Source of the DNA: an uncultured bacterium
Lineage (GTDB): Bacteria; Bacillota; Clostridia; Christensenellales; HGM11417
NCBI GenBank assembly: GCA_905215695.1
Contig: CAJMQN010000002.1
Coordinates: forward strand, 262,610 to 326,609
DNA length: 64,000 bases
Direction of reading: 5' to 3'
Part shown: piece after piece, positions 2,413-18,365 of the stretch
How the letters are laid out: the number at the start of each line of letters is the position of its first letter
Position numbering within the stretch: the stretch's first letter is position 1
Notes under the pieces: model-generated
What the model was told of the DNA's origin: nothing
The model's database searches: none
Seen by the model: only the letters and a program-made list of their open reading frames with translations
Position numbers and translations under genes: made by a program

Positions 2413-2449
2413 AAAAAGCCCTTCCGAAAAACGGAAGGGCTTTTGTTTT
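2413..2449. terminator. Rho-independent terminator hairpin (bidirectional)
   Basis: agcccttccg (2417-2426), loop aaaaa, cggaagggct (2432-2441). Flanked by an A-run upstream and ttttgtttt downstream. Confidence 0.7.
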
Positions 2450-2454
2450 CTCCA

Positions 2455-2497
2455 ATAAAAAAGGGAATCCCTGTCGGAAGGGATTCCCTTTTTTTTC
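2455..2497. terminator. Rho-independent terminator ending the BMC locus (after the Fe-ADH gene)
   Basis: gggaatccct (2463-2472) pairs with agggattccc (2479-2488). An A-run lies on one side and a T-run on the other. It sits directly after the stop at 2500-2502. Confidence 0.75.
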
Positions 2498-2499
2498 TA

Positions 2500-3648
2500 T
2501 TATTTCCAGATGTCGCGGTAAATTTGCAGAACGTCCGCCTTGTTGGGTACACGGGGATTGGTGAGCGTGCAGGCATCCGCAAGAGCGGCGTCCGCCATTG
2601 ACCCGATGTTCGCCATATACTCCTCTTCGGTGCACTTGCCGAGTTGGGAAATCGTGAGCGGAATGTTCATCTCCTTGAGCATGAACTGAATCCAGCTCAC
2701 CAACGCGCGCACCGTCGTAATCTCGTTGAAGTTTTGCAGACCCAAGAGCTTGGCGATGTTCAGATACTTGCGAACAGCGGGGAGATATTCCTTTTTTGAT
2801 TTGCTGTGTTGGTTGATGTCGCTGTTGTACTCGATGATGTGCGGAAGCAGAATCGCGTTCGCGCGCCCGTGCGGGACGTGGAAGGTCGCGCCGAGTTGGT
2901 GCGCCATGCCGTGATTGAGTCCGAGAGACGCCGAGTTGAACGCGAGACCCGCAAGACAGGACGCCACGTGCATCTTGCGCCGCGCGTGCACGTCGTTTCC
3001 GTCGTAGTACGCGCGCAGAAGAAACGCGCCGCAGATCTCGATCGCCTTCTCCGCGAGCGCCGCCGAAAACTCGTTGTTGTTGACGCTGACGTACGCCTCG
3101 ATGGCGTGGGTCAGAACGTCCATGCCCGTGTCCGCCGTGATTGCGGGCGGAACGGATTTGACGAGTTCCTCGTCCAAAATCGCCTCGGTCGGAAGCATAC
3201 GCTCGGACACAAGCGGATATTTGACGTGATTTGCCGGGTCCGTGATGACGGAGAACGCCGTCACCTCCGAGCCCGTGCCGCTCGTGGTCGGAATTGCGAT
3301 GAGCGCAATCTTTAACGAAGCGTCAATCTGCATGGTGAATTCGCGAATCGCCTTCGCAGAATCGATGGCGGAGCCGCCGCCCACCGCGATGATTGCCTCG
3401 GGCTTGTAATTCATGACTGCTTTGACCCCGGCGACAATCTTTTCGATCGGGGGGTCGGGCACCACGTCCTTGAAAATTTCAAAGTCCATGTTGCCGCTGT
3501 CCAGACGGTACGTGATGAGCTTGACCATGCCGCTCTCCACGACAAAGGGGTCTGTGATAATCATGACCCGCTTGTAGGGAATCTTTGCGAGACGGTCCAG
3601 CGCATTTTCGCCGAAATAAATTTTTGTCTTGATGTCGAAACTCTTCAT
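2500..3648 (-). CDS. Iron-containing (group III) alcohol dehydrogenase, PduQ/FucO-like
   Basis: 382 aa with the GGGSAIDSAKA motif and the His-rich metal site HGMAHQLG...HG typical of Fe-ADH. Last gene of the BMC operon. No N-terminal amphipathic extension. Confidence 0.85.
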   Translation of the reverse strand: MKSFDIKTKIYFGENALDRLAKIPYKRVMIITDPFVVESGMVKLITYRLDSGNMDFEIFKDVVPDPPIEKIVAGVKAVMNYKPEAIIAVGGGSAIDSAKAIREFTMQIDASLKIALIAIPTTSGTGSEVTAFSVITDPANHVKYPLVSERMLPTEAILDEELVKSVPPAITADTGMDVLTHAIEAYVSVNNNEFSAALAEKAIEICGAFLLRAYYDGNDVHARRKMHVASCLAGLAFNSASLGLNHGMAHQLGATFHVPHGRANAILLPHIIEYNSDINQHSKSKKEYLPAVRKYLNIAKLLGLQNFNEITTVRALVSWIQFMLKEMNIPLTISQLGKCTEEEYMANIGSMADAALADACTLTNPRVPNKADVLQIYRDIWK

Positions 3649-3663
3649 GTCGCTCCTAATCTC

Positions 3664-3903
3664 TTACAGAAGATATACGGGAAGTTCCTGTCCGAAGGAA
3701 ACGGTCTCCGCGCGTTTTCCCTCCGCCTTGGGTGCGGATACGGGCTTCGCTGCGGGCGCCTTGGGCGCGGGAACCGCCTTGGGTTTGACTGCTTTTGGTG
3801 CGGGAACGGGCGCAACAACCGCCGCCGCAGCCTCCTCTTTCGTCTCCTTGCCTGCCTGCTTCGCGCTCGCCGCGCGAGCGATACTGCTCTTACCGACTGC
3901 CAT
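3664..3903 (-). CDS. Small basic Ala/Pro/Lys-rich low-complexity protein, candidate ParA partner
   Basis: 79 aa. RBS GAGGAGG lies 9 nt upstream of the ATG, and the start overlaps the ParA-like stop by 14 nt. 42 of 79 residues are A, P or K (my count). The C-terminus is FGQELPVYLL. No recognisable domain. Confidence 0.55.
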   Translation of the reverse strand: MAVGKSSIARAASAKQAGKETKEEAAAAVVAPVPAPKAVKPKAVPAPKAPAAKPVSAPKAEGKRAETVSFGQELPVYLL

Positions 3904-4678
3904 AACGATCGACCTCCTCGGCTAATTTTTCATATTCTCCCGCGCTCCGCGCGCTCCTTCGGAATGCGCCCACGGGCTTGCTGTTGTCCTGCGACCACTC
4001 GATACTGCTGTCCGTTCGGATATACGTCTCGAAAATCTGCACGTCCTCTCCGAGTTCGGAGAGGGTCTCGAGAGTCTGTTTGAAATAGTTTTTGCGGGTA
4101 TCTACTTTGGTCACCACAATCCCCAAGAGGGAAAGCTCCGGGGATACCGCCTTGACATCGTTTAAGAATTCAAAGAGATTCGCGAGTCCGAACAGTCCCC
4201 ACGGACTCGCCTCTACGGGGATAATCAGGTAGTCCGACGCGACCAGAATGTTCATGACCCAGCCGCCCAGCGTCGGGGGCGCGTCGATGAGGATATAGTC
4301 GTATTCTCCGCTCTCCCGTACCTCGGCAAGACACTTCTTTAAAACAAATTCCCTCTGCCACTTGGAGAAGAGTTCCACCTCGATTCCGCTCATCAAGGTC
4401 GAACTCGGCACGAGGTCGAGTTTCTCGTACGGAGTATGTACGATGTCCGCCTTTACGCTCCGTTGCGTCTGCACCGCACGGTAGAGATTGTTTTCGGACT
4501 TGGCGAATTCCAACACCCGCTCCTCCGGGAAAAAGGAGAGCGAGAGGTTGAGCTGCATATCCCCGTCCACGAGGAGCACGCGCCTGCCCTTTTGGGCGAG
4601 GAAGTAACCGACGTTCGCGCAGGTCGTGGACTTGCCGCTCCCGCCCTTGTTGTTCGCAAAACAGATGACCTTTGTCAT
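3890..4678 (-). CDS. ParA/MinD-family partition-type ATPase
   Basis: 262 aa with the deviant Walker A VICFANNKGGSGKSTT, Walker A-prime LLVDGDMQ and Walker B YILIDAPP. RBS AAGGAGGAG. Starts 10 nt after the DeoR stop. Confidence 0.85.
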   Translation of the reverse strand: MTKVICFANNKGGSGKSTTCANVGYFLAQKGRRVLLVDGDMQLNLSLSFFPEERVLEFAKSENNLYRAVQTQRSVKADIVHTPYEKLDLVPSSTLMSGIEVELFSKWQREFVLKKCLAEVRESGEYDYILIDAPPTLGGWVMNILVASDYLIIPVEASPWGLFGLANLFEFLNDVKAVSPELSLLGIVVTKVDTRKNYFKQTLETLSELGEDVQIFETYIRTDSSIEWSQDNSKPVGAFRRSARSAGEYEKLAEEVDRYGSR

Positions 4679-4688
4679 GCTCTCCTCC

Positions 4689-5456
4689 TTACGCCTGCGG
4701 GCACACGCACTCGATGCCCGCTCCCGCGAAGAACTGTTTCCACGCCGCGGAAGGCTCTTTGTCCGTCAAAATGGTCGTGATTCCGTCGAAATTGACGATA
4801 CGGGTAAAGGATACGCAGTCGAATTTGGTACTGTCCACCGCGAGAATCCTTTTGTCCGCGGCGTCAAGCATGAGCTTTTTCGCGGCGGCATAGGACTCCG
4901 ACAGGTCGGTGATTCCATTCTTTGCGTCCACGCCCTTGCAGGACACGAACGCCTTATCTACGTGATAGGAGCCGAGCATTCGCTCGGTCTGATGCCCCTC
5001 GAGCGCGAGAGACCCCTCCTTCATCGTGCCGCCGGTGGACATGATCTTCCAGCCCGACACATCCGAAAGCTCGATGAGAATCTCAATCGAATTGGTGATA
5101 ACGGTGAGATTGTGCTTGGTCTTTAAACGCTTGGCGATGAATACTGCGGTCGAACTGCCGTCCAGCATGACACGGTCGCCGTCCTCCACAAGCTCCGCTG
5201 CGAGTTCCGCGATGCGCTGTTTGCCGATGACGTTCTTCTTCTTCCGAATCATGAAGGGCAGATCCACATTGGTGTCCTCGTTGATGACTGCGCCTCCGTA
5301 GGTCTTTTTGACGTACCCTTCCTTCTCCAGCTTTTCGAGGTCGCGGCGGATGGTTTCCTCCGAAACGTCGTAACGCTGACTCAGGTCGGCGACAAGCACC
5401 CGCTTGTCCTCCTGAAGGGCGGTCAATATCAGATTTCTTCTCTCGATCGCGAGCAC
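4689..5456 (-). CDS. DeoR-family transcriptional regulator
   Basis: 255 aa with a GTG start. N-terminal wHTH (VADLSQRYDVSEETIRRDLEKLEKEG) plus a C-terminal sugar-phosphate sensor-like domain. Confidence 0.85.
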   Translation of the reverse strand: MLAIERRNLILTALQEDKRVLVADLSQRYDVSEETIRRDLEKLEKEGYVKKTYGGAVINEDTNVDLPFMIRKKKNVIGKQRIAELAAELVEDGDRVMLDGSSTAVFIAKRLKTKHNLTVITNSIEILIELSDVSGWKIMSTGGTMKEGSLALEGHQTERMLGSYHVDKAFVSCKGVDAKNGITDLSESYAAAKKLMLDAADKRILAVDSTKFDCVSFTRIVNFDGITTILTDKEPSAAWKQFFAGAGIECVCPQA

Positions 5457-5483
5457 GTTTCCCCTCCTCGAATATCCAAAGAG

Positions 5484-5505
5484 TCCTCCCGGGGGACCGG
5501 GAGGA
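5484..5505 (-). terminator. GC-rich stem-loop between the PduT-like gene and the DeoR gene (possible partial terminator or attenuator)
   Basis: tcctcccgg (5484-5492), loop ggga, ccgggagga (5497-5505): a 9-bp perfect stem. Only a weak U-tract follows on the minus strand. Confidence 0.35.
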
Positions 5506-5519
5506 ATCGTAAGACGCTT

Positions 5520-6068
5520 TTACAGAATTGATTTGCAGATTTTGGCGTCCGGACGCGCGATGACCGAGCTGTCCAAGAACATGCCGTTCGGCGCAACACT
5601 CGCCTTTGCGCGGTCGATTGCCGCCTGCACCGCCGCGACTTCGCCGGTCAAGAGCAGGTAGGATTTTCCGCACATGCCGCGGGCGAGCCGGATTTCCACA
5701 AGTTCGACTTCCGCAGTCTTTGCCGCCTGATCCGCCGCGACGATGATCGCCGCCGCGTCATAGGTCTCCAAAACGCCCAGCGACTTGATGACTTCCACGT
5801 GCGTGGAGCCGTAGATTGCCGGGAAAATTGCTTCGTCCGGGTTGCCGAGGACAAAGCTGTCGATGAGTTGGGTGCCGTATTGGGTCTTTGCCGTCTCCAC
5901 CGCCGCGTTGACCGCGGACAGCTCGCCGGTCAGGATCACGATATATTTGCCCGGGCAGACCGTCTGCGCCTCGATGATCTCCACGTCCGAAGTCTTGACC
6001 ATCGCGTCCGCCGCCTGAATGCCCGCCGAAACCGTCTTGTATTCCGCCATGCCGATTGCTTTACTCAT
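5520..6068 (-). CDS. pduT: Tandem-BMC-domain shell protein (BMC-T), PduT-like
   Basis: Trimmed from the 204-aa ORF to MSKAIGMAEY (RBS GAGGAA). Two BMC domains. Cys38 in the context TVCPGKY is at the position of the PduT 4Fe-4S ligand. Confidence 0.8.
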   Translation of the reverse strand: MSKAIGMAEYKTVSAGIQAADAMVKTSDVEIIEAQTVCPGKYIVILTGELSAVNAAVETAKTQYGTQLIDSFVLGNPDEAIFPAIYGSTHVEVIKSLGVLETYDAAAIIVAADQAAKTAEVELVEIRLARGMCGKSYLLLTGEVAAVQAAIDRAKASVAPNGMFLDSSVIARPDAKICKSIL

Positions 6069-6078
6069 TGTCCGTTCC

Positions 6079-7407
6079 TCACTTATTCTCGATGACCACA
6101 AAGTCTTTGTCCGCTTCCAGCACCGTGCCCGCAATCGAGGCGTGAATCGCCACGCTCAACGCGCCGGGCGCGGGATTCGCAATCTTCTGTCCCCGACCCA
6201 CGATGTCCCCGGGTTTGACCGCGAGCTGCGCGGGCGCGCCGATGTGCTGGCGCAGGGGAATCCGAACTTTTTTAAACTCTACCGTTTCGTCCTTTAAGGG
6301 AGCGTCCACGTCGTAGCGAGCAAGGTCAAGACGGCTCTTCAGCCGCGCAATGGGTGCCTTGCGGAGTTCGCGCTCGGGTCCTACGGGAGCTGCCTCCACA
6401 TGCGGGGGCTTGACGCCCGCGGCGCGGAGACCGTTCTTGTACTCGCCGATGAGCGTGCGGGGCGCGAGGCTTTGGAAACAGGAATACATCTCGCAGAGAC
6501 CGCAGCCCGAGCAGAAAAAGGTGTTCAGGAAGATATTGGGGTTCTGCACGTCCTTGCAGGTCGCCGCACGCATGAAGAGATGCGGTTCGATCGGATGCCC
6601 CAATGCGTGACGCGGGCAGAGGTCCGTGCACATCTGGCACTGACAGCAACTCGCCGCCGCACGCTTTAAATCAATACTCGCCTTGCGGTTCTTCTTCTGC
6701 ACGATGGGGTGATCCTTCGAGAGCACCAACACCGCGTTGGTCGTTTTGGTCACAAGGGTGGACGCACTCCCCAAAAAGCCCATCATGGGTCCGCCCACAA
6801 AGTACGCCGGGTCCTTCACCGTCGGACCGCCCGCGAGCGCAACCACTTCGCCGATGGTCACGCCGAGAGGCACGCGCACCGTCACGGGATTTTTGACCTC
6901 CGCAACGACGGATACGAGTTTGTCCACGACAGGCGTGCTCCGCTCCAGCGCGCGGTAGAGATTGTAGATCGTCTCCACGTTGAAGACCGCGACGCCCTGT
7001 TCAATCGGGAGCCCGCCCGGACGGACGACCTTTTTCGTCACCTCGTAGATGAGCACGACTTCGTCGCCCGCAGGATACACCTCTTCGAGGAGTCCGAGCC
7101 GAACGCCCGGAAATTTTCCGATGTGCTGATTCAGCGCAGCAATGGTGTCCTTGTAGTGCTCCTTGATGCCGATGATCATCTCCGACGCCTTCACGGTCTC
7201 TCCGACCAAACTGAAGGTCTTTAAAATCTCATAGGCATACTTCTCGAGAAGCTGCTGATGCAGTTTTAAGAGAGGTTCGCACTCCGCGCAGTTCAGAATA
7301 ATCGTGTTCGCGCGCTCGTCCAGTTTTGCGTAGGTGGGGAAACCCGCGCCGCCGGCGCCGACAACGCCGTTTTCCTGTAAAATTCCGCTTAAGGTTTTGA
7401 TGTCCAT
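6079..7407 (-). CDS. pduS: PduS/RnfC-like flavo-iron-sulfur oxidoreductase
   Basis: Trimmed to MDIKTLSGILQENGVVGAGGAGFPT (RBS GGAGAG). Two ferredoxin-type Cys clusters (CCQCQMCTDLCP and CSGCGLCEMYSC). The SLBB/RnfC-like region is present. Confidence 0.75.
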   Translation of the reverse strand: MDIKTLSGILQENGVVGAGGAGFPTYAKLDERANTIILNCAECEPLLKLHQQLLEKYAYEILKTFSLVGETVKASEMIIGIKEHYKDTIAALNQHIGKFPGVRLGLLEEVYPAGDEVVLIYEVTKKVVRPGGLPIEQGVAVFNVETIYNLYRALERSTPVVDKLVSVVAEVKNPVTVRVPLGVTIGEVVALAGGPTVKDPAYFVGGPMMGFLGSASTLVTKTTNAVLVLSKDHPIVQKKNRKASIDLKRAAASCCQCQMCTDLCPRHALGHPIEPHLFMRAATCKDVQNPNIFLNTFFCSGCGLCEMYSCFQSLAPRTLIGEYKNGLRAAGVKPPHVEAAPVGPERELRKAPIARLKSRLDLARYDVDAPLKDETVEFKKVRIPLRQHIGAPAQLAVKPGDIVGRGQKIANPAPGALSVAIHASIAGTVLEADKDFVVIENK

Positions 7408-7423
7408 TTTTCTCTCCGTCCGT

Positions 7424-7687
7424 CTATTCCAGTCCCGAACCGTCGTCGATAATGCCCACAATGGCGGCATCGACCGGGGCTTTCTCCATACCGCAGCCAA
7501 TCCGGGCGGCAGAGCCCTGCGCGACGAGCACGAATTCTCCGATGCCCGCGCCGATGTTGTCGATGGCTACGATTCTATTCTCCACTTTCAGGCTCGGGAT
7601 CGGCTCGACAATCATGAATTTATTGCCCACCAAATTGTCGTTTTTTCTCGTGGAAACGACGCTCCCCACTACCTTTCCGATAATCAT
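7424..7687 (-). CDS. BMC vertex pentamer protein (BMC-P; EutN/PduN/CcmL family)
   Basis: 87 aa. MIIGKVVGSVVSTRKNDNLVGNKFMIVEPI is typical of EutN/CcmL. Confidence 0.85.
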   Translation of the reverse strand: MIIGKVVGSVVSTRKNDNLVGNKFMIVEPIPSLKVENRIVAIDNIGAGIGEFVLVAQGSAARIGCGMEKAPVDAAIVGIIDDGSGLE

Positions 7688-7721
7688 AAATTTCCTCCTG
7701 CCCGAAAGAATTTTCGCAAAT

Positions 7722-8360
7722 TCAGATGATATAGGCGGGCTGTCCGCAGGTAATCTTCGCCGCGTTTGCCTCGTCCGTATCGATGTGCATCTCCAGCGTA
7801 AAACTTGGATCTACGCGGATTTGCACGTTATTGAAAATGGTTCCGCGCTCGTTGTCCACGCGCACGGACACAATCTGTCCGTCCTTTACGCCCGCGCACT
7901 CCGCGTCCTTGGGGGACATGTGAATGTGCCGCTTTGCGACGATACAGCCTTCCTTTAAGTAAATCGCACCTTTGGGTCCCACAATCGCAATCGGGGCGGA
8001 ACCCTTCGTGTTGCCGGACTCCCGAATGGGCGCTTTGATGCCGAGTTTGACGGCGTCGGTTGCGGATATTTCCACCTGCGACCCCTTTCTCACGGGTCCC
8101 AAAATACGTACGTTTTCGATTGCGCGGAGCTTGAGCCCCACGATTGTGACCTGTTCGTTGGAGGCAAACTGCCCCCCCATCAGCTCTTTCTTCTTGGTGA
8201 GCTGATACCCTGCGCCGAAGAGCGCCTCCACGTCGTCTTGCGTTAGATGGACATGCCGCGCGGATACGCCGATCGGGACCATGAAACCGCCCTTGGTCTC
8301 ACGCTCCTTGATTGCCTCGAGCACCAGTCTTGTGATCGTTTCGATATTCTTCTCTTCCAC
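7722..8360 (-). CDS. pduL: Phosphate propanoyltransferase PduL with N-terminal encapsulation-like helix
   Basis: 212 aa with a GTG start. Duplicated PduL motifs GVSARHVHL and RHIHMSP. The N-terminus IETITRLVLEAIKE is an amphipathic helix. Confidence 0.85.
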   Translation of the reverse strand: MEEKNIETITRLVLEAIKERETKGGFMVPIGVSARHVHLTQDDVEALFGAGYQLTKKKELMGGQFASNEQVTIVGLKLRAIENVRILGPVRKGSQVEISATDAVKLGIKAPIRESGNTKGSAPIAIVGPKGAIYLKEGCIVAKRHIHMSPKDAECAGVKDGQIVSVRVDNERGTIFNNVQIRVDPSFTLEMHIDTDEANAAKITCGQPAYII

Positions 8361-8414
8361 TCTTCGTCACCGGTCCGTTTTGTTTGCATCCGAAAATCGG
8401 AGAACAAGCCAACC

Positions 8415-8445
8415 CATGCGCGGCGAAACTCTTCCGCCGCGCATG
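8415..8445 (-). promoter_or_regulatory. Intra-operon GC-rich stem-loop downstream of a shell gene
   Basis: catgcgcggcg (8415-8425), loop aaactcttc, cgccgcgcatg (8435-8445): an 11-bp perfect stem. No adjacent U-tract on the minus strand. Confidence 0.45.
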
Positions 8446-8491
8446 AACTGTCTGTCTATTTTGATGAGGTCTCGAAAAATCTTTGCCCTTC

Positions 8492-8770
8492 TTACTTGAG
8501 GACGGGCAGGATCTTCTCGACGTCGGTGTGGGGACGCGGAATCACGTGCGTCGCAACCAATTCACCAAGTTTTGACGCGCTCGACGCTCCCGACTCAACG
8601 GCAGCCTTGACAGCGCCTACGTCCCCGCGAACCATGACGCTCACGAGCCCGGAACCGATCTTCTCGGTGCCGACAAGTACGACGTTCGCAGCCTTCAGCA
8701 TCGCGTCAGCCGCCTCGACAGCCGCGACAAGACCACGCGTTTCAATCATTCCCAATGCTTCCTGTGCCAT
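8492..8770 (-). CDS. BMC-H hexamer shell protein, PduA/PduJ-like
   Basis: Start set at [14 protein letters not shown] (GGAGG lies 8 nt upstream). Canonical [21 protein letters not shown] core. Confidence 0.9.
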
Positions 8771-8792
8771 TTTTTTATCCTCCAAATGGTTG

Positions 8793-9119
8793 TTAAAAAA
8801 TTACTTTTTGGTTCCCTTGATTCCCGTTGCTCTTCCCCGCCATGCGGCTTGCGCTTAAAGCCACGATGCGGAGAATTTCCTCGTGCGGATTTGCGATGAC
8901 GTTCGCCGCAACCGGCTTTTTGATCGCCTTTTCCGCCGCGGCTTCGACCGCCTGCGTCACCGCGGAGACGTTTCCCTCCACGATAATCGTCACCAGCCTG
9001 CCGCCGAGTTTTCTCTCCCACGTGACGAAGGACACGTCCGCGGTCTTGCACATGATGTCAAGCGCGTCCACCGCCGCCGTCACGCCGGAGATTTCCACAA
9101 AGCCCAATGCCTTTCCCAT
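8793..9119 (-). CDS. BMC-H shell protein with basic pore-loop region and about 25-aa C-terminal tail
   Basis: 108 aa. The BMC domain is [29 protein letters not shown]. The loop is ERKLGGR instead of KIGSG. The tail is [18 protein letters not shown]. Confidence 0.75.
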
Positions 9120-9179
9120 ACTTTCCTCCTCCGGGTCTGCCGGTCACTATCCCGGCAGCCCGGGGCGCGGAAATTCCGA

Positions 9180-9455
9180 TTAGATCTTGGGAAGGATCTT
9201 TTCGACGTCGTTGTGCGGACGCGGAATCACGTGCACCGCAACCAGCTCGCCGAGTCTCGAAGCCGCAGCCGCGCCGACCTCGGTCGCCGATTTGACGGCG
9301 CCTACGTCCCCGCGAACCATCACCGTGACGAGTCCGGAACCGATTTTCTCGGTGCCGACAAGCGTCACTTCCGCTGCCTTAATCATCGCGTCAGCCGCCT
9401 CAATCGCAGCCGTCAGTCCGCGCGTCTCCACCATTCCGAGTGCAAGTTGTGCCAT
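9180..9455 (-). CDS. BMC-H hexamer shell protein, PduA/PduJ-like
   Basis: Start set at [14 protein letters not shown] (GGAGG upstream). Close paralog of the 8492-8770 gene. Confidence 0.9.
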
Positions 9456-9557
9456 TTTCAAAACCTCCAAAAATCTTTTTGATTTGTCTCTATATCAAAC
9501 GGGCGGGACGCCCGCGTGTGCCGGGAAACCGTTTTTCCGGGGAAACCCGCGGAATTT

Positions 9558-9869
9558 TTACTTCTTGTCGAGCGCGCTGAGTTTCAGCATCTTCTCGGTG
9601 TCCGTTTCGGGGCTCGCAATCACGTGGTGGGAGACCACGCCGGAAATCTTTTCCGCCGCCGCCATGCCCGCCTCCACCGCCGCTTTCACGTCCGCGACGG
9701 AGCCGCGGTACTTGACGCTCACGATGAGGGGCACGGGGAGCGCGTCCGCGTTGCCCGGTTTGTTCTTGTCGAAGGTCTCCAGCCGGACGTTTGCCGCCTT
9801 ACAGCCCGCGTCCCCCGCGGCAAACGCCGCGACGAGTCCGAACACCTCGAGAATTCCCACAGCTTCCAT
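9558..9869 (-). CDS. Divergent BMC-H shell protein with insertion at the pore loop
   Basis: 103 aa. BMC fold is recognisable (MEAVGILEVFGLVAAFAAGDAGCKAANV...RGSVADVKAAVEAG). The KIGSG pore loop is replaced by DKNKPGNADALPVPL. Confidence 0.7.
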   Translation of the reverse strand: MEAVGILEVFGLVAAFAAGDAGCKAANVRLETFDKNKPGNADALPVPLIVSVKYRGSVADVKAAVEAGMAAAEKISGVVSHHVIASPETDTEKMLKLSALDKK

Positions 9870-9883
9870 AACCGTTTACCCGA

Positions 9884-11098
9884 TTACTTGTTGACGATGG
9901 CGATCTTGAGACCTTCCATCTTCAGGTTGGTACGGAGCGCCTCGTTGATCTCCTCGAGGGGGAATTTGTGCGTAATCAGCTTGGACATCGGAAGCCCGAT
10001 TCCCTTCGCCCGTTTCAAAAAGTCAAAGGTCGTCGCGTAGTCGCGCAGGGTATAGACCCAACTTCCGACCGTGGTGATTTCCTTGGCGCAGATGTCGAAG
10101 TGCGGGTTGATAGTCGCGTCGCCGCCGTTGATAAAGAACCCGAGTTCGCACAGTCCGCCGCCGTTGCGGATAAACTTGTAGATGTTCGCGTGCGCCACGG
10201 GCGAACCCGTGCACTGGAAGGCGAAGTCCGCCGGGTGTCCGCCGAAGCTGTCCTCCACCGCTTTCGCGAGCGCCTCGATGCCCTTGTGGTCCTTGAAGTT
10301 GACCGTATGGCTTGCGCCCATCTCCTTGGCAAAGTCGAGACGTTTCTGCTCTCCGTCCACCGCGGTAATGTTCTCGATACCCATGGTGCGCAGTACGGCG
10401 ATGCAGATCAGTCCGATGGGACCGCAGCCCTGCACCACGACGCGGGAGTTAAAGCGCAGAATGTTGGTCGTCTTTGCCCGTTCCACCGCGTGTACGAGTA
10501 CAGCGCAGGGTTCGATGAGGATTCTCGAGTCGAGGTCGAGGTCGGAAACATTGAAGACCGTCGAGCCCTTGCGGATAAAGATGTAGTCCGAGAACCAACC
10601 GTTCAGGTGAATGTTGTCGTCCGGGAGCAGACCATAGACGTCCGCGCCCCCGACGTTCTGCTTATTCAGGTCGAAAATCGTGATGTCCGGGTTGTCCTTG
10701 AAGATCATGCAGGTGACGACCTTATCGCCGACCTTGAGGTCCTTGCCCGCGCTGTCTTTCTTGACGTTTTTGCCCATTTTGACGATTTCGCCGGTGCCCT
10801 CGTGCCCGAGCGCAACGGGAATCATGCCGAAGGGGTCGCGCTTGAACTCGTGCGCGTCCGTGCCGCACACGCCGCAGCCCTCTACCTTGACGAGAATGTC
10901 GTCGTCCCCTACTTCCGGAATCGGATATTCCTTGATGTCGAAGTTTTCGAGCTTGGTGAGCATCGCGACCTTCGCGGTCTTCGGAATCGCGCCGCCCGCC
11001 GCGGGACGGGAGGAAGTCGCGGCATCCGCGGGTCTGCCCGTCATGTCCGCAAGGACTTTCTTGACGATTTCGTCGATATTGACAGAATTGATATCCAT
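9884..11098 (-). CDS. Zinc-dependent medium-chain alcohol dehydrogenase with N-terminal encapsulation peptide
   Basis: 404 aa with MDR motifs CGVCGTDAHE, GHEGTGEIV and Rossmann VQGCGPIGL. An N-terminal extension of about 45 aa carries the amphipathic helix IDEIVKKVLADM plus a Pro/Ala/Ser linker. Confidence 0.8.
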   Translation of the reverse strand: MDINSVNIDEIVKKVLADMTGRPADAATSSRPAAGGAIPKTAKVAMLTKLENFDIKEYPIPEVGDDDILVKVEGCGVCGTDAHEFKRDPFGMIPVALGHEGTGEIVKMGKNVKKDSAGKDLKVGDKVVTCMIFKDNPDITIFDLNKQNVGGADVYGLLPDDNIHLNGWFSDYIFIRKGSTVFNVSDLDLDSRILIEPCAVLVHAVERAKTTNILRFNSRVVVQGCGPIGLICIAVLRTMGIENITAVDGEQKRLDFAKEMGASHTVNFKDHKGIEALAKAVEDSFGGHPADFAFQCTGSPVAHANIYKFIRNGGGLCELGFFINGGDATINPHFDICAKEITTVGSWVYTLRDYATTFDFLKRAKGIGLPMSKLITHKFPLEEINEALRTNLKMEGLKIAIVNK

Positions 11099-11111
11099 GT
11101 TTTGTTCTCCT

Positions 11112-12497
11112 TTATCTGATGCAGAGGCTGTCCGACATGACGCACCGTCTGCGCTTGGTGAACGTGGAGGCAGAAGTCAGCCCTTCGCCGGTGCGGGAGG
11201 CAATGGTAAAGGTGCAATATCCTTCGCCGCCGAACCCGAGCGCCGCATAGGAGGGCGCGTTCTTGACCAAAATTGCCGTGTCAATCGCCTTCGCGTACTT
11301 CGTAATGTTGTCGATATTCTTGGAGTGAATGTGCGCAGAGTGCCGGTTTCCGTGCTCAAGCCACACCGCCTTCTCCACCGCGTCGTCAAAATCCTTTGCT
11401 CGGACGATGCCCAAAATCGGCATCATCAGCTCTTCGGCGATGAGCGGGTGCTCCTTCTCGCCCTCGAAGATGATGCACCGAATGCTGTCCGGCACCTCTA
11501 CCCCGATCATGGCGAGCAGCGCTTTCGCGCTCCTGCCCACGCACTTGCGGTTGAGTCCCTTGGGGGTCAGAACCGTGGAGACGAGTTTGTCCTGCTCCTC
11601 TTTGGAGGCGAGGTAACAGCCCTGCTCCGAAATCATGTAGTGCATGAGTTCGTCGATGATCGAACCGACCGCGACGACTTCCTTTTCCGCGATGCAGGGA
11701 AGATTGTTGTCGAAAGTACAGCCGTTTACGATGTCCTCCGCCGCCTTGCGAATGTCCGCGGTCTCGTCCACAAGCGCCGGGGGATTGCCCGCGCCCGCGC
11801 CGATGCCGCGCTTTCCCGAGGAGAGCACCGCCGTCACGACGCCGGGACCGCCCGTCGCCACGATGAGCGGAATGTCCTTGTGCTTCATCATGATGTTGCT
11901 CGAATCCATCGTGGGCTTGACAAGCGAAACCGCCACGTTTTCGGGACCGCCCGCCTCGACGGACGCCTCGTTGACGAGGTTGACCGCAAAGTTCGAGGTC
12001 TTGATCGCCGCAGGGTGGGGATTGAATACCACCGTATTCCCCCCCGCAATCATGCCCATGCTGTTGCAGAGGATGGTCTCGGAAGGATTGGTGCAGGGCG
12101 TAATCGCGCCGATGACCCCGAAGGGTCCCATCTCGATGAGCGTCAATCCGCGGTCGCCCGACCACGCTGTCGTCGTGATGTCCTCGGTGCCGGGCGTCTT
12201 GTCCGCCACGAGGTGGTGCTTTAAAATCTTGTGCCCCACGTTGCCCATGCCCGTCTCTTCAACGCCCATTCGGGCAAGCGTTTCCGCATTTTCCTTGGTC
12301 TTTCTGCGGATATTCGAAATAATCTTTTCTCTCTGATCCATGGACATTCTGCGAAGCACCGTTTCAGCCTTTTTTGCCGCCTCGATCGCCTCGTTCATGT
12401 CCGTAAAGATGCCCATCTGCTTTCCGTCCGCGTTCAGACTGAACCGCGCAAGCACCTCTTTTACGATGTCCTGTACTACTTTTTCATTTACAGACAC
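11112..12497 (-). CDS. pduP: CoA-acylating aldehyde dehydrogenase, PduP-like, with N-terminal encapsulation peptide
   Basis: 461 aa of the ALDH superfamily, with the catalytic Cys context NNLPCIAEKE. The N-terminus is EKVVQDIVKEVLARF. Confidence 0.85.
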   Translation of the reverse strand: MSVNEKVVQDIVKEVLARFSLNADGKQMGIFTDMNEAIEAAKKAETVLRRMSMDQREKIISNIRRKTKENAETLARMGVEETGMGNVGHKILKHHLVADKTPGTEDITTTAWSGDRGLTLIEMGPFGVIGAITPCTNPSETILCNSMGMIAGGNTVVFNPHPAAIKTSNFAVNLVNEASVEAGGPENVAVSLVKPTMDSSNIMMKHKDIPLIVATGGPGVVTAVLSSGKRGIGAGAGNPPALVDETADIRKAAEDIVNGCTFDNNLPCIAEKEVVAVGSIIDELMHYMISEQGCYLASKEEQDKLVSTVLTPKGLNRKCVGRSAKALLAMIGVEVPDSIRCIIFEGEKEHPLIAEELMMPILGIVRAKDFDDAVEKAVWLEHGNRHSAHIHSKNIDNITKYAKAIDTAILVKNAPSYAALGFGGEGYCTFTIASRTGEGLTSASTFTKRRRCVMSDSLCIR

Positions 12498-13066
12498 GAT
12501 ATCACCTCTTTAAAACGGTCCCGCGCAAACTCGCCGAGCGCCGTATCCTCCTCGAGCGTGCCGCCGCTTACGCCGAACCCGCCGATCATCTTCTCGTTGT
12601 AATAGAGGGGTTCTCCCCCGCCGAAGATCACGAGCTTTCCGCCGTTTGTGAACTGAATCCCGTAGAGCGGACCGCCCGGCGCAGCCAAAGCCGCAAGTTT
12701 GGAGGTCGGCATCTGCAGGGACACCGAAGTGAACGCTTTGTTCACCGCGACGTCGTAGCTCGCTATGTAGGCGTCGTCCATGCAGTGCACGCAGACGGGA
12801 TTTCCGCCCGCGTCGCACACCGCCGCGACAATCTTCATGCCGCGTTTTACAGCCTCACGCTCGACTTCCTCGCAGAGCGCCTTCGCAATCGCGAGACTCA
12901 TGCGCTTGCCGCACTTGCAGACGTGTCCGTCCGCATGCCGGTGCAGAGGCTCGGCAGCGGGCGCGGGCTTTTCGAACGCAGCGGGGACAGCGGGAGTTTC
13001 TTCCTTCTTCCCCGCCATCTCGCGGACGATGGAGGCGATGGTCTGTGCGATTTCCGCCTCGTTCAT
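12488..13066 (-). CDS. GlcG/DUF336 (PduO C-terminal-like, heme-binding family) protein with N-terminal encapsulation peptide
   Basis: 192 aa. The C-terminal 130 aa resemble DUF336 (AAVCDAGGNPV...SYDVAVNKAFTS...GGFGVSGG). The N-terminus is EIAQTIASIVREMAG, followed by a Pro/Ala linker and then HRHADGHVCKCG. Confidence 0.7.
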   Translation of the reverse strand: MNEAEIAQTIASIVREMAGKKEETPAVPAAFEKPAPAAEPLHRHADGHVCKCGKRMSLAIAKALCEEVEREAVKRGMKIVAAVCDAGGNPVCVHCMDDAYIASYDVAVNKAFTSVSLQMPTSKLAALAAPGGPLYGIQFTNGGKLVIFGGGEPLYYNEKMIGGFGVSGGTLEEDTALGEFARDRFKEVISCL

Positions 13067-13069
13067 GGT

Positions 13070-13882
13070 TTACAGTCCGAGCTGCTTCATGACGCGCTCG
13101 GTGATCGCCGCGATCATGTCCGAAGCGCCGCTGTTCGCCGTATTCTCCGAAGTGGGAATGCAGGAGCCGTTGCAGCTGTGGCAGCTGGGCTTGCCGTTCT
13201 TGTTGTTGACGCAGATGTCCGCCGGGTGCTTGCCCTTCAGACCGAACTGACGGCGAATCTCATACAGTCTCTGAACCTGCTCGTCGGAGAGGAGCTCGGG
13301 TCCGCCGAGCTGCTTGGACTTGAAGAGGAGCTCCGCGTAGAATTCGACGGACTCCATCTTGTGATAGGCATTCAGCAAAGAATCCGAATAGGTCAGCGCG
13401 CCGTGGTTCTCGAGGAGCACCGCGTCGAAGTACTGAAGGTACTTGGAAACCGCCTGCGGAATCTCGTCCGTGGAGGGCGTGCCGTACTCGGCGATCGGAA
13501 CGCAGCCGAGCGCGATGACCGCCTCGGGCATGATGGGCTGCGTGAGCGGAATGCCCGCAATCGCGAAGCTCGTCGCATAGATCGGATGCGCGTGCACGAC
13601 GGACTGTACGTCCGGGCGCTCCTTATAAACTCTCATGTGCATCTTGATTTCCGAAGAGGGCTTGAACCCAGGGTTCGCCTGAAGAACCTCGCCCTTCTCG
13701 TTGACTTTGCAGATATAATCGGGAGTCATGAATCCCTTGGAGACGCCGGTCGGCGTGCAGAGGAACTCGTGGTCGTTCAGCTTGACCGAAATGTTGCCGT
13801 CGTTCGCCGCGACCATTCCCCTGTCGTAGATACGCTTGCCGATGTCGCAGATCTGTTTCTTGATTTCGTATTCGTTTTGCAT
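13070..13882 (-). CDS. Class II aldolase (fuculose/rhamnulose-1-phosphate aldolase-like) with C-terminal Cys cluster and encapsulation peptide
   Basis: Start moved to the second ATG (AGGAGG lies 7 nt upstream). Aldolase_II features: GNISVKL and HAHPIYAT. The C-terminal extension is CVNNKNGKPSCHSCNGSC...DMIAAITERVMKQLGL. Confidence 0.8.
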   Translation of the reverse strand: MQNEYEIKKQICDIGKRIYDRGMVAANDGNISVKLNDHEFLCTPTGVSKGFMTPDYICKVNEKGEVLQANPGFKPSSEIKMHMRVYKERPDVQSVVHAHPIYATSFAIAGIPLTQPIMPEAVIALGCVPIAEYGTPSTDEIPQAVSKYLQYFDAVLLENHGALTYSDSLLNAYHKMESVEFYAELLFKSKQLGGPELLSDEQVQRLYEIRRQFGLKGKHPADICVNNKNGKPSCHSCNGSCIPTSENTANSGASDMIAAITERVMKQLGL

Positions 13883-13932
13883 TTTCATGCCTCCTAAAAT
13901 ATTTCCTTATTTTTCTTTTGGATTTCGACTCT

Positions 13933-13961
13933 ATTATACGCCAAAAACGGACACAAGTCAA
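13933..13961 (-). promoter_or_regulatory. Consensus sigma70 promoter upstream of the aldolase gene (internal promoter of the BMC locus)
   Basis: Minus strand reads TTGACT (13961-13956), 17-nt spacer, TATAAT (13938-13933). Confidence 0.6.
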
Positions 13962-13986
13962 CATTTTTAAGCGAATATTTTGGGTA

Positions 13987-14469: not shown

Positions 14470-14470
14470 A

Positions 14471-14836: not shown

Positions 14837-14858
14837 AGGGTTTCCTCTTTTTATTATT

Positions 14859-15007
14859 GTTGCCGCTGCAACGCCTTACGACCCGACCGTGCTTAAGAGC
14901 GAGCGCGGAGCGCGAGTGTACCCCTTCGGGGTGTAGTCGCTCCTCGGGACTCTTATGCGAGTGCAAGCACTCACGCACTCCCCTCGTCACGACCATAACA
15001 CGGTCGG
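14859..15007 (-). ncRNA. Unclassified structured RNA or palindromic repeat element, copy 1 (sense with the BMC operon)
   Basis: Fills the activase to PduU-like intergenic space and starts 3 nt after the activase stop. Homologous to 59870-60012. The closing helix CCGACCGUG/CACGGUCGG (plus-strand 14883-14891 with 14999-15007) differs from copy 2 by three compensatory pairs. Shared hairpins are ACCCC-GAA-GGGGU and GUUGC-AGCG-GCAAC. Confidence 0.5.
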
Positions 15008-15010
15008 AAA

Positions 15011-15805: not shown

Positions 15806-15806
15806 A

Positions 15807-18332: not shown

Positions 18333-18365
18333 ACTATGTACACTCCGACAGTTATTTTCAAATCT

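What the first reader, a model, noticed from the sequence alone, without database searches (positions are those of the whole stretch)
3664..4678. ParA-type ATPase plus a tiny disordered basic partner inside the metabolosome operon: candidate McdAB-like positioning module for a catabolic BMC
Seen in sequence: a 262-aa ParA/MinD ATPase (deviant Walker A FANNKGGSGKST) starts 10 nt after the DeoR stop. Its last 14 nt overlap the start (RBS GAGGAGG) of a 79-aa ORF, and the Fe-ADH gene starts 15 nt after that ORF ends. The pair is therefore translationally packed inside the BMC operon. No ParB, centromere-binding HTH, plasmid or phage gene is adjacent. The 79-aa protein has 42 Ala/Pro/Lys residues, a basic N-terminus (MAVGKSSIARAASAK), a central AP/KP low-complexity tract and a short hydrophobic tail (FGQELPVYLL). 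Established knowledge: carboxysomes are distributed by McdA (ParA family) together with McdB, a small, basic, largely disordered adaptor that binds the shell and stimulates McdA. Inference: this pair could do the same for a glycyl-radical metabolosome. The locus also encodes a PduV/EutP GTPase, so two NTPase-based spatial systems may coexist. I am not aware of an experimentally characterised ParA-based positioning system for a GRE metabolosome, but I cannot check the literature here.
Basis: partly seen in the sequence, partly recalled or inferred. Interest (0 to 1): 0.8.

Follow-up and report, generated by a model that had tools for sequence, protein, structure and literature searches.

The report
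Orphan ParA–adaptor pair in metabolosome operon
A ParA-type ATPase and a tiny disordered partner protein, a stripped-down descendant of ParB, are co-transcribed with a fucose/rhamnose microcompartment operon; they may space these organelles in the cell, an idea already published as a prediction and still untested.

Summary
A 262-aa ParA (Walker A FANNKGGSGKST) and an overlapping 79-aa basic A/P/K-rich ORF lie between DeoR and Fe-ADH, at the distal end of a GRM5 glycyl-radical microcompartment operon.

The small ORF is a real gene. 52 of 80 species-level relatives encode it directly after ParA. It has a conserved N-terminus (MxVGxxSIxRA), a hypervariable linker and a conserved C-terminal [D/E]LPx[Y/H]LL.

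In at least nine loci, including GRM5-embedded ones, the partner still carries a ParB N-terminal domain. The 79-aa protein is therefore a ParB relic reduced to a disordered adaptor.

The link to microcompartments is recurrent but facultative:
- About 23–30% of family loci lie within 10 kb of GRM genes, in at least three arrangements.
- Only 4 of about 33 independently sampled GRM5 loci contain the pair.
- The most abundant gut variants sit in housekeeping neighbourhoods.
- The tightest partner is the Fe-ADH gene.

McdAB-like pairs in GRM and PDU loci, with a C-terminal Tyr, were already reported bioinformatically (MacCready 2021; Basalla 2024). None has been tested.

Verdict: a new member of a predicted kind. 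Metabolosome positioning is the best single hypothesis (about 0.45), and a different cargo remains plausible.

The parts
3890..4678 (-). ParA/MinD-family ATPase, 262 aa
   Evidence: AAA_31 4e-52, CbiA 7e-20. K11, K16, D40 and D132 align to the catalytic residues of M. xanthus ParA (8RAY); the family is about 80% conserved, with invariant basic residues K191, R195, K196, K200, R221, R240, R241 and R244.
4625..4660 (-). Deviant Walker A, FANNKGGSGKST, with signature lysine K11
   Evidence: Read directly from the translation. K11 and K16 are invariant in 81 family members.
3664..3903 (-). 79-aa adaptor protein, the ParB-derived, McdB-like partner (stop codon included)
   Evidence: It is conserved after the orthologous ParA in 52/80 genomes. 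A profile search found 201 unnamed proteins, and 119 of the 120 listed carry both motifs. There are 576 clusters at 50% identity.
3853..3903 (-). N-terminal ParA-binding-type motif and helix (residues 1-17, MAVGKSSIARAASAKQA)
   Evidence: M1, G4, S7 and R10 are invariant; V3 and I8 are nearly invariant. AF2 predicts a helix at residues 5-17 with pLDDT about 70. In orthologues a ParB_N domain follows this motif.
3688..3852 (-). Disordered A/P/K-rich linker (residues 18-72)
   Evidence: pLDDT is below 50 for residues 23-36 and pTM is 0.17. In relatives the linker cannot be aligned and its length varies, giving total protein lengths of 52-238 aa.
3667..3687 (-). C-terminal anchor motif ELPVYLL-COOH (residues 73-79)
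   Evidence: P75 and L78 are invariant; L74 and L79 are nearly invariant; position 77 is Y, H, F or W. The last 9 residues have the highest pLDDT, about 81.
3913..3919 (-). Shine-Dalgarno GAGGAGG for the adaptor, located inside the 3' end of parA
   Evidence: Read from the sequence. It lies 9 nt upstream of the ATG at 3903, and the ATG overlaps parA by 14 nt.
2500..3648 (-). Fe-dependent alcohol dehydrogenase, third member of the conserved ParA-adaptor-FeADH triad
   Evidence: Pfam Fe-ADH and ADH_Fe_C. It follows the pair in 18 genome loci and in L081-L086. In the Fe-ADH tree, the copies that follow the pair form one clade.
4689..5456 (-). DeoR-family regulator directly upstream of parA
   Evidence: Pfam HTH_DeoR and DeoRC. 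The same DeoR-ParA-adaptor-FeADH order occurs in L004, L030, L081, L082, L092, L094, L108 and L109.
13987..14469 (-). PduV/EutP-type GTPase in the same operon
   Evidence: Pfam PduV-EutP 2e-44. In a second GRM arrangement, PduV lies directly upstream of ParA.
18366..18394 (-). Consensus sigma-70-type promoter in front of the GRE gene (start of the operon)
   Evidence: 12 of 12 hexamer matches. The genes upstream of it are unrelated.
2414..2444 (-). Intrinsic terminator after Fe-ADH (end of the operon)
   Evidence: 13-bp stem plus T-run. No strong terminator-like site lies between DeoR, ParA, the adaptor and Fe-ADH.
2414..18394 (-). GRM5-type glycyl-radical microcompartment operon, the context of the pair
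   Evidence: Pfam. Gene order: GRE, activase, PduU-like BMC, PduV, class II aldolase, HbpS-like, AldDH, Zn-ADH, four BMC-H, PduL, EutN, PduS-like, BMC-T, DeoR, ParA, adaptor, Fe-ADH.

Best explanation
The pair is a two-component ParA-type cargo-positioning module, expressed as the tail of the GRM5 operon, and its cargo is most likely the GRM5 metabolosome.

Proposed mechanism:
- ATP-bound ParA dimers coat the nucleoid through a conserved basic patch.
- The 79-aa adaptor decorates the microcompartment through its C-terminal ELPVYLL tail.
- The adaptor reaches ParA through a flexible A/P/K linker.
- Its N-terminal helix (invariant G4, S7, R10) docks at the ParA dimer interface, as the ParB and McdB N-termini do. 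This stimulates ATP hydrolysis and releases ParA from DNA.
- The resulting local ParA depletion drives a Brownian-ratchet separation of organelles along the nucleoid. This prevents clustering and secures inheritance.

The adaptor is an evolutionary relic of a ParB/Noc-type protein that has lost its HTH, its dimerisation domain and, in this genome, also its ParB N-domain.

Shown: gene order and translational coupling, operon boundaries, intact ATPase motifs, motif conservation, predicted disorder, the ParB_N domain in orthologous adaptors, and recurrent linkage to GRM loci.

Inferred: DNA binding, ATPase stimulation, the identity of the cargo, and positioning itself.
For: Operon and coupling:
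- The pair lies inside one transcription unit with the shell and enzyme genes.

ParA:
- Signature Lys, Walker A, A' and B residues are present. Y66 and E102 match the ParB-peptide pocket residues Y81 and E117 of M. xanthus ParA. R195 matches Mx R209, which I take from memory to be the Soj R189 position. Eight basic residues are family-invariant (PMC12462528).

Adaptor:
- Its termini are invariant across 44-50 diverse members while the linker is free to vary.
- AF2 predicts only an N-terminal helix (5-17) and an ordered C-terminal tip. This matches the description of H. neapolitanus McdB (PMC12139897).
- ParB_N scores above the Pfam cutoff in orthologous adaptors of L004, L008, L022, L062, L063, L070, L092, L094 and L108. 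These are collinear with the short forms.

Linkage to GRM loci, seen in at least three arrangements:
- DeoR-ParA-adaptor-FeADH: window, L004, L030, L081, L082, L092, L094, L108, L109.
- DeoR-FeADH-ParA-adaptor: L006, L071.
- PduU-PduV-ParA-adaptor at the end of another GRM type: L046, L055, L056, L059, L066, L073, L074.
- In addition, one ParA clade sits upstream of AraC-rhaB-rhaA-GRM5.
- 18-24 of 80 species loci are within 10 kb of GRM genes, against my rough estimate of 1-2% for a random gene.

Other support:
- Flanks beyond Fe-ADH differ among the window, L081 and L082, so the module travels with the GRM5 locus.
- Published McdB-like proteins of GRM and PDU loci have Tyr within the last four residues and a nearby acidic residue, as here.
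Against: - About 70% of family loci have no BMC gene within 10 kb. The two most abundant adaptor variants lie in a PPIase-GNAT-ParA-adaptor-FeADH-ECF-truA-rplM context.
- Only 4 of about 33 independently sampled GRM5 loci that extend past DeoR carry the pair. 18 go straight from DeoR to Fe-ADH.
- The tightest co-inherited neighbour is Fe-ADH, not a shell gene. GRM linkage could therefore be secondary.
- One whole ParA clade (28 of 80 loci) has no adaptor within 10 kb.
- The 'aromatic' position is often His, and McdB's invariant Trp is absent.
- The residue equivalent to the DNA-binding R238 of M. xanthus ParA is Ser.
- There are no interaction, localisation or expression data.
Confidence: 0.45

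Rival explanations
1. The ATPase-adaptor mechanism is the same, but the cargo or target is not the microcompartment. The family would be a general Lachnospiraceae ParA system, for example acting on the division machinery. Its adaptor tail, [D/E]-L-P-x-[Y/H]-L-L, resembles the conserved FtsZ C-terminal tail (D-I-P-x-F-L). That tail docks on FtsA, ZipA, MinC, ZapD, ClpX and SlmA in E. coli and, from my memory, on SepF in Gram-positive bacteria. Under this reading, the presence of the pair in some GRM loci reflects synteny with the Fe-ADH gene.
For: - Most family members are in housekeeping neighbourhoods: ECF-truA-rplM-rpsI, thrC/rimP-nusA-infB and truB-ribF-rpsO.
- The C-terminal motif is the same whatever the genomic context.
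[quoted passage not shown] Like the FtsZ tail, it follows a long disordered linker.
- The ParB_N domains of the long adaptors score best against Noc, the nucleoid-occlusion ParB paralogue (2.3e-10, against 6e-6 for Spo0J).
- The ParA-adaptor-FeADH triad is one evolutionary unit inside and outside GRM5.
Against: - The FtsZ resemblance is a six-residue motif and could be chance. It was not tested against any receptor.
- The arrangement PduV-ParA-adaptor, without Fe-ADH, at the end of a different GRM operon type is not explained by Fe-ADH synteny.
- A division regulator placed under a sugar-inducible BMC operon promoter would be odd.
- Carboxysome McdAB genes, from my memory of MacCready 2020, also often lie away from carboxysome operons. 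Distance from a BMC locus is therefore weak evidence.
Confidence: 0.3
2. The pair serves the microcompartment pathway but not by nucleoid-based positioning. For instance, it could recruit or organise the co-inherited Fe-ADH or other enzymes at the shell, or act as an assembly or anti-aggregation factor during BMC biogenesis.
For: - The ParA-adaptor-FeADH triad is cohesive.
- The extended C-terminal element of many adaptors (IHEEKFxVISxIxSDLPxYLL) has the spacing of an amphipathic helix, like encapsulation peptides (my reading of the sequences).
- One DNA-binding residue of chromosomal ParA is not conserved.
Against: - No Fe-ADH is present in the PduV-ParA-adaptor arrangement or in many non-BMC loci.
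- The invariant C-terminal basic patch of ParA fits nucleoid binding.
- No precedent is known to me for a ParA ATPase acting on a soluble dehydrogenase.
Confidence: 0.1
3. The pair is a decaying remnant of a chromosomal or plasmid ParAB DNA-partition system with no present cargo, or the 79-aa ORF is not a functional gene.
For: - The adaptor descends from ParB.
- A tyrosine recombinase gene lies nearby.
- One MAG shows a frameshifted adaptor (L037).
Against: - The ParA family is about 80% conserved, with all catalytic residues, across at least 566 species genomes.
- The adaptor termini are invariant over very divergent linkers.
- There is no HTH, no parS and no iterons.
- The best true-plasmid matches are 38% or lower and phage matches 36.5% or lower.
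Confidence: 0.03

Closest known systems
Putative McdAB-like pairs of non-carboxysome BMC loci (PDU, GRM), reported bioinformatically in MacCready et al. 2021 (PMC8359340, section 2.9 and Fig. 8f) and Basalla et al. 2024 (PMC11321042, Fig. 4)
   Same: - A ParA-type gene is followed by a small McdB-like ORF within or next to a GRM or PDU operon.
- The C-terminus has Tyr (or Phe) within the last 4-5 residues instead of Trp.
- An acidic residue lies within five residues of it. The window protein ends ELPVYLL.
   Different: - The published sequences are only in figures, so identity with this family could not be checked.
- Those papers do not mention (in the text held) a ParB N-domain in such partners, the frequent His at the aromatic position, the Fe-ADH triad, or that most family members lie outside BMC loci.
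- Neither those pairs nor this one has been tested experimentally.
α-McdAB of Halothiobacillus neapolitanus (carboxysome positioning)
   Same: - The ParA has the signature lysine.
- A partner gene lies immediately downstream.
- The partner is small, basic at the N-terminus and almost fully disordered, with an N-terminal helix (about residues 1-17) that binds the ATPase and a short C-terminal cargo motif (PMC12139897, PMC11321042).
- The genes are encoded in the BMC operon.
   Different: - The cargo here would be a catabolic glycyl-radical metabolosome in a Gram-positive anaerobe.
- There is no invariant Trp.
- No sequence homology to McdB was shown.
- This ParA scores nearer to Soj than to the solved McdA homologue.
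- The adaptor demonstrably derives from ParB.
Chromosomal ParABS (Soj-Spo0J) and the ParB paralogue Noc
   Same: - The closest solved ParA is M. xanthus chromosomal ParA (8RAY, 7.8e-31), followed by T. thermophilus and H. pylori Soj.
- The A and B genes are translationally coupled.
- Orthologous adaptors keep a ParB/Srx N-domain, best matched by Noc and Spo0J.
- The N-terminal peptide precedes that domain, as in ParB.
   Different: - There is no HTH, no C-terminal dimerisation domain and no parS.
- The Glu of the GERR CTP motif is absent in the six long adaptors aligned, and the whole domain is lost in the window protein.
- NCBIfam ParA_partition scores 82.9 bits against a cutoff of 180.
- The genes are not at an origin or on a plasmid.
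PduV/EutP GTPase, proposed to influence PDU microcompartment positioning
   Same: - It is encoded in the same operon (13987-14469).
- In another GRM arrangement it lies directly upstream of ParA.
- It is the other candidate spatial NTPase of metabolosomes (PMC8262871).
   Different: - It belongs to an unrelated small GTPase family.
- Its mechanism is unknown.
- It is widespread in PDU, EUT and GRM loci, whereas the ParA pair is accessory.
FtsZ C-terminal linker plus conserved tail (DYLDIPAFLRKQAD in E. coli)
   Same: - A long disordered linker ends in a short acidic-aliphatic-Pro-x-aromatic-Leu motif.
- Positions equivalent to I374, P375, F377 and L378 match L74, P75, Y77 and L78.
   Different: - The similarity is at motif level only.
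- There is no tubulin domain.
- The adaptor ends in LL-COOH rather than a basic tail.
- No receptor was tested.
- This is a lead, not a membership claim.

Membership tests
ParA/MinD (deviant Walker A) ATPases | KGGxxK[ST] P-loop with N-terminal signature lysine | tested here: met
   Residues 7-18 read FANNKGGSGKST. K11 and K16 are invariant in the family. AAA_31 scores 4e-52 and CbiA 7e-20.
ParA/MinD (deviant Walker A) ATPases | Walker A' and Walker B aspartates | tested here: met
   D40 and D132 align with D60 and D145 of M. xanthus ParA.
Chromosomal/plasmid ParABS partition system | Cognate ParB with centromere-binding HTH (or RHH), plus parS or iterons nearby | tested here: not met
   The 79-aa partner has no Pfam or NCBIfam domain. 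No parS is found within 3 mismatches. No iterated repeats are present.
Chromosomal/plasmid ParABS partition system | ParA reaches the curated equivalog score (NCBIfam ParA_partition, RepA, SopA) | tested here: not met
   Scores are 82.9 against 180, 73 against 348, and 52 against 725 bits. The best plasmid-borne relative is 42% identical or less, and true plasmids are 38% or less.
Chromosomal/plasmid ParABS partition system | Non-specific DNA-binding basic residues of Soj/ParA | tested here: inconclusive
   R195 aligns to Mx R209, which I take from memory to be the Soj R189 position. An invariant basic patch is present. However, the equivalent of the DNA-binding R238 of Mx ParA is S225.
MinD | Curated MinD model score; MinC and MinE neighbours | tested here: not met
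   minD_bact scores 47 bits against a cutoff of 212.9. The neighbours are DeoR, the adaptor and Fe-ADH.
McdA (carboxysome) | Specific sequence affinity to known McdA | tested here: not met
   The solved McdA homologue (6NON/6NOO) scores 2e-12, weaker than Soj/ParA at 1e-25 to 8e-31.
McdA (carboxysome) | Encoded in or next to a BMC operon, with a small partner gene directly downstream | tested here: met
McdB | Basic N-terminus that forms the ATPase-binding helix | tested here: met
   The first 20 residues have a net charge of +3 and R10 is invariant. AF2 predicts a helix at residues 5-17. Binding itself is not testable here.
McdB | Intrinsic disorder and low complexity | tested here: met
   pTM is 0.17 and the mid-region pLDDT is below 50. 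42 of 79 residues are A, P or K.
McdB | Invariant C-terminal tryptophan | tested here: not met
   The protein contains no Trp. The equivalent position is Y, H or F, and rarely W, across the family.
McdB-like proteins of PDU/GRM loci (published prediction) | Tyr or Phe within the last 4-5 residues, with an acidic residue within 5 residues | tested here: met
   The tail is ELPVYLL, with Y at -3 and E at -7. Across the family the position is often His. Identity with the published sequences is not testable because the figures are not held.
ParB/Srx N-terminal (CTPase) domain proteins | PF02195 domain | tested here: not met
   The domain is absent from the window protein. It scores above the cutoff in orthologous adaptors of nine loci, so the window protein is a derivative and not a member.
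GRM5 glycyl-radical microcompartment locus (context) | GRE, activase, class II aldolase, AldDH, PduL and BMC-H/T/P shell genes | tested here: met
   The definition is from PMC8156839.
BMC positioning system (function) | Adaptor binds the shell; ParA gradient spaces the organelles | not testable with these tools
   This needs interaction assays and imaging.

The most novel reading that the evidence does not exclude
This family records, in living genomes, the stepwise reduction of a ParB/Noc-type CTPase into a minimal disordered McdB-like adaptor. The inferred series runs from N-peptide + ParB_N + tail, to N-peptide + linker + tail. The resulting ParA-adaptor(-FeADH) cassette would be the first ParA-based positioning system for a catabolic metabolosome. 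It would use a new [D/E]LPx[Y/H]LL-COOH anchor that resembles the FtsZ tail. This would link ParABS and McdAB evolutionarily and give a portable handle for positioning engineered metabolosomes.
Probability: 0.3. Interest if true: 0.75.

Novelty: new member of a known kind. Interest (0 to 1): 0.5.

Why it matters
How catabolic microcompartments (PDU, EUT, GRM) are spaced and inherited is an open question. Only carboxysomes have a proven system, McdAB. Recent reviews and a 2026 Salmonella study still list metabolosome positioning as unknown.

This locus is a clean, operon-embedded candidate in gut Lachnospiraceae, whose GRM5 compartments process fucose and rhamnose.

The work here adds testable specifics:
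- The exact N-terminal residues (G4, S7, R10) and the C-terminal anchor to mutate.
- The finding that the adaptor is a ParB relic, which suggests how McdB-like adaptors can arise.
- A caution that the family is mostly encoded outside BMC loci and travels with an Fe-ADH gene, so the cargo must be demonstrated rather than assumed.

Tried and rejected
- A single-sequence search with the 79-aa protein gave only two hits. A profile of 34 partners was needed.
- Pfam and NCBIfam give nothing for the 79-aa protein.
- Plasmid or phage origin was rejected. The best matches are 42% and 36.5%, and the top 'plasmid' hits are chromid ParA-ParB pairs. The N-terminus of that ParB does not resemble the adaptor motif.
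- No parS, centromere-like repeats, Rfam families or tRNAs were found.
- I looked for a displaced adaptor in the 28 adaptor-less loci using the C-terminal motif alone. None was found, apart from a frameshifted copy (L037) and a variant (L078).
- I looked for ftsZ in the window and in loci L001-L082, to compare tails within one genome. None was present.
- The supplement of PMC11321042 does not hold the published GRM/PDU McdB-like sequences. MacCready 2020 has no text on other BMCs.
- Cluster look-up gave no species names for the abundant adaptor variants, so a genome-level BMC co-occurrence test could not be done.
- A literature search on 'GRM5' + 'ParA' returned only glutamate-receptor papers.
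- The 524-aa gene coupled to the adaptor in L055 and L056 is a lipoprotein with no Pfam domain, seen in only two loci. I did not pursue it.
Full report
**Observation.**
- DeoR is at 4689-5456 and ParA at 3890-4678 (262 aa). The ParA start lies 10 nt after the DeoR stop, and the Walker A reads FANNKGGSGKST.
- A 79-aa ORF lies at 3664-3903. Its ATG overlaps the last 14 nt of parA, and GAGGAGG sits 9 nt upstream at 3913-3919.
- Fe-ADH is at 2500-3648, 15 nt after the ORF's stop.
- The small protein has 42 Ala/Pro/Lys residues and a pI of 10.0.
- Pfam confirms ParA (AAA_31 4e-52), DeoR and Fe-ADH. The 79-aa ORF has no Pfam or NCBIfam hit.
- One correction: a tyrosine-recombinase gene (1492-2295) lies just beyond the operon terminator.

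**Context.** The pair is the distal part of a GRM5-type glycyl-radical microcompartment operon.
- Gene order is GRE (15807-18332), activase, PduU-like BMC, PduV, class II aldolase, HbpS-like, AldDH, Zn-ADH, four BMC-H, PduL, EutN, PduS-like, BMC-T, DeoR, ParA, adaptor, Fe-ADH.
- A 12/12 consensus promoter sits at 18394-18366. A strong terminator lies at 2444-2414, directly after Fe-ADH. There is no strong terminator-like site inside the DeoR-ParA-adaptor-FeADH stretch.
- Genes upstream of the promoter are unrelated.
- The presence of the aldolase defines GRM5, the fucose/rhamnose type common in gut Lachnospiraceae (PMC8156839).

**The ATPase.**
- Its closest solved relative is M. xanthus chromosomal ParA (8RAY, 7.8e-31). 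Next come orphan mycobacterial ParA-like proteins, then T. thermophilus and H. pylori Soj. The solved McdA homologue is much weaker (2e-12).
- No curated NCBIfam partition or MinD model is reached.
- Mapping onto 8RAY shows the signature Lys (K11), K16, D40 and D132. It also shows Y66 and E102, which correspond to Y81 and E117 of the pocket that receives the ParB N-peptide arginine. R195 corresponds to Mx R209, which I take from memory to be the Soj R189 position. The equivalent of the DNA-binding R238 is Ser (PMC12462528).
- Across 81 family members the protein is about 80% conserved. Basic residues K191, R195, K196, K200, R221, R240, R241 and R244 are invariant.
- It is therefore an active-looking Soj-like paralogue that probably binds the nucleoid. 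It is neither Soj nor an McdA orthologue.
- Close relatives (67-75% identity) occur in at least 566 species-representative genomes. All named ones are Lachnospiraceae.
- Plasmid and phage records hold nothing above 42% and 36.5%.

**The small protein.**
- An ORF with the same ends follows ParA, overlapping it by 10 or 14 nt, in 52 of 80 loci. It is 52-238 aa long.
- In alignments of 34 and 44 members, M1, G4, S7, R10, P75 and L78 are invariant, and V3, I8, L74 and L79 are nearly so. Everything between cannot be aligned.
- A profile search finds 201 unnamed proteins, and 119 of the 120 listed carry both motifs. An exhaustive HMMER search finds 576 clusters at 50% identity; the 150 best listed are 63-148 aa.
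- AlphaFold2 gives no fold (pTM 0.17). It predicts only an N-terminal helix (5-17) and an ordered C-terminal tip. This is how H. neapolitanus McdB is described.
- In the adaptors of L004, L008, L022, L062, L063, L070, L092, L094 and L108, the middle holds a ParB N-terminal domain above Pfam's cutoff. It is best matched by Noc and Spo0J.
- The long forms aligned (six of them) are collinear with the short ones and are scattered over the ParA tree. L004, L092, L094 and L108 are GRM5-embedded, with the same gene order as the window.
- The simplest reading is that the adaptor descends from a ParB that lost its HTH and dimerisation domains, and that it has repeatedly also lost the N-domain. The window protein is the fully reduced form.

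**Neighbourhood surveys.**

*Forward survey (80 species loci, ±10 kb):*
- 18 loci have shell or GRM signature genes in the fetched flank. The count rises to about 24 when partial GRM5 enzyme sets are included.
- The arrangements differ:
  - DeoR-ParA-adaptor-FeADH: window, L004 and L030, plus L081 and L082, whose ParA proteins are 81% and 80% identical.
  - DeoR-FeADH-ParA-adaptor: L006 and L071.
  - PduU-PduV-ParA-adaptor at the end of another GRM type: seven loci.
- One ParA clade (28 loci: Faecalimonas, Mediterraneibacter and Ruminococcus) has no adaptor. In most of its loci ParA sits upstream of AraC and/or rhaB, often followed by GRM5 genes.
- The remaining loci are in housekeeping contexts. 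These include the two most abundant adaptor variants in metagenomes.

*Reverse survey (80 GRM5 loci anchored on AldDH):*
- Of about 33 loci that extend past DeoR, only 4 carry the pair.
- 18 go directly from DeoR to Fe-ADH, and the rest have neither.

*Fe-ADH tree:*
- Copies that follow ParA-adaptor form one clade, whether or not they lie in a GRM5 locus.
- Copies that directly follow DeoR fall outside that clade.
- The cohesive unit is therefore ParA-adaptor-FeADH. GRM linkage is enriched and recurrent, but facultative.

**Literature.**
- MacCready et al. 2021 state that McdA- and/or McdB-like sequences occur within or next to four non-carboxysome BMC operon types. The McdB-like proteins have Tyr instead of Trp within the last four residues.
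- Basalla et al. 2024 name PDU and GRM, and note Y/F in the last five residues plus nearby acidic residues.
- The window protein (…ELPVYLL) fits this description exactly.
- Reviews and papers up to 2026 still treat these systems as untested.
- I found no text linking McdB-like proteins to a ParB N-domain.

**Interpretation.**
- The best-supported mechanism is a ParA Brownian-ratchet module whose cargo is the GRM5 metabolosome (confidence about 0.45).
- The main rival keeps the mechanism but changes the cargo (about 0.3). The family is mostly encoded away from BMC loci. Its tail resembles the FtsZ C-terminal tail at the four key positions, and its ParB_N is Noc-like. This rival rests on motif-level similarity only.
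- A role centred on Fe-ADH or on assembly (about 0.1) and a decaying partition system (about 0.03) are less likely.

**Verdict.**
This is a new member of a predicted kind.
- Added value here: the ParB ancestry of the adaptor, precise motifs to mutate, the Fe-ADH triad, and quantitative limits on the BMC association.

Noticed in passing
L004:7934-8398, L022:10770-11237, L063:10770-11315, L070:10749-11228, L062:10770-11417, L008:4813-5433, L092:18595-19065, L094:18620-19102, L108:18614-19096: Orthologous adaptors carry a ParB N-terminal (ParB/Srx) domain between the same N- and C-terminal motifs. In the six long adaptors aligned, the G and second R of the GERR box are invariant and the Glu is absent. 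The best solved match is Noc. This implies repeated domain loss from a ParB ancestor.
   Followed up: yes
window 3667-3687, and the C-termini of partners in L001-L080: The invariant tail [D/E]-L-P-x-[Y/H/F]-L-L-COOH matches the conserved FtsZ C-terminal tail (DIPAFL) at the positions of I374, P375, F377 and L378. Like that tail, it follows a long disordered linker. Many relatives extend it to IHEEKFxVISxIxSDLPxYLL.
   Followed up: partly
window 2500-3648; L001, L002, L010, L016, L083-L086 and others: The Fe-ADH gene is co-inherited with ParA-adaptor as a triad, also in non-BMC neighbourhoods. These Fe-ADHs form one clade, distinct from the Fe-ADHs that directly follow DeoR in ParA-less GRM5 loci.
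   Followed up: yes
L007, L011, L012, L015, L018-L021, L025, L027, L031, L033-L036, L040, L042-L044, L048, L052, L053, L064, L068, L069, L072, L075, L076: One monophyletic ParA clade (Faecalimonas, Mediterraneibacter, Ruminococcus) has no adaptor ORF within 10 kb. In most of these loci ParA sits upstream of AraC and/or rhaB, often followed by GRM5 genes. Where its partner is encoded, if it has one, is unknown.
   Followed up: partly
L045, L050, L057, L060, L061, L077, L079, L080, L005, L026 (adaptor linkers): A second short conserved element, roughly V(L/I)TPxNxEE(L/I)QxKF(L/V)S, sits in the linker of Blautia-type adaptors. It is absent from the window protein.
   Followed up: no
window 1476-1490 and 2388-2402, flanking 1492-2295: A small tyrosine recombinase gene (267 aa, Phage_integrase family) is bracketed by 15-nt inverted repeats (93% complementary). 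An 11/12 promoter-like site lies at 2343-2372 on the plus strand. This could be an invertible or mobile segment just outside the GRM5 terminator.
   Followed up: no
window 1-1450, minus strand: A gene running off the window start encodes a lipoprotein-like protein (signal peptide plus Cys). It has Cys-rich repeats of about 40 aa (ATCEAGGTDVxVCxxCGD…TAKLAHTY), seen at DNA level as a 120-bp tandem repeat at 770-1187.
   Followed up: partly
window 8410-8450, minus strand: A 19-bp-stem hairpin lies between the last BMC-H gene and pduL inside the operon. Its T-tail is weak. It could be an attenuator or an RNA-processing or stability element that sets shell-to-enzyme ratios.
   Followed up: no
window 9884-11098, 11112-12497 and 7722-8360: Zn-ADH (MDINSVNIDEIVKKVLADM…), AldDH (MSVNEKVVQDIVKEVLARF…) and PduL (MEEKNIETITRLVLEAIKE…) start with amphipathic, encapsulation-peptide-like N-termini. 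The Fe-ADH next to the adaptor has none.
   Followed up: no
L055:10215-11792 and L056:10346-11920: In two PduV-ParA-adaptor loci, the adaptor stop overlaps the start of a gene for a 524-525-aa lipoprotein with no Pfam domain.
   Followed up: partly
window 21656-22947: A second AAA_31-type P-loop protein (CpsD-like tyrosine kinase) lies with a Wzz-domain partner and a Wzy-like O-antigen ligase, upstream of the GRM5 promoter. It is unrelated to the finding, but it is another ParA-superfamily hit in the window.
   Followed up: no
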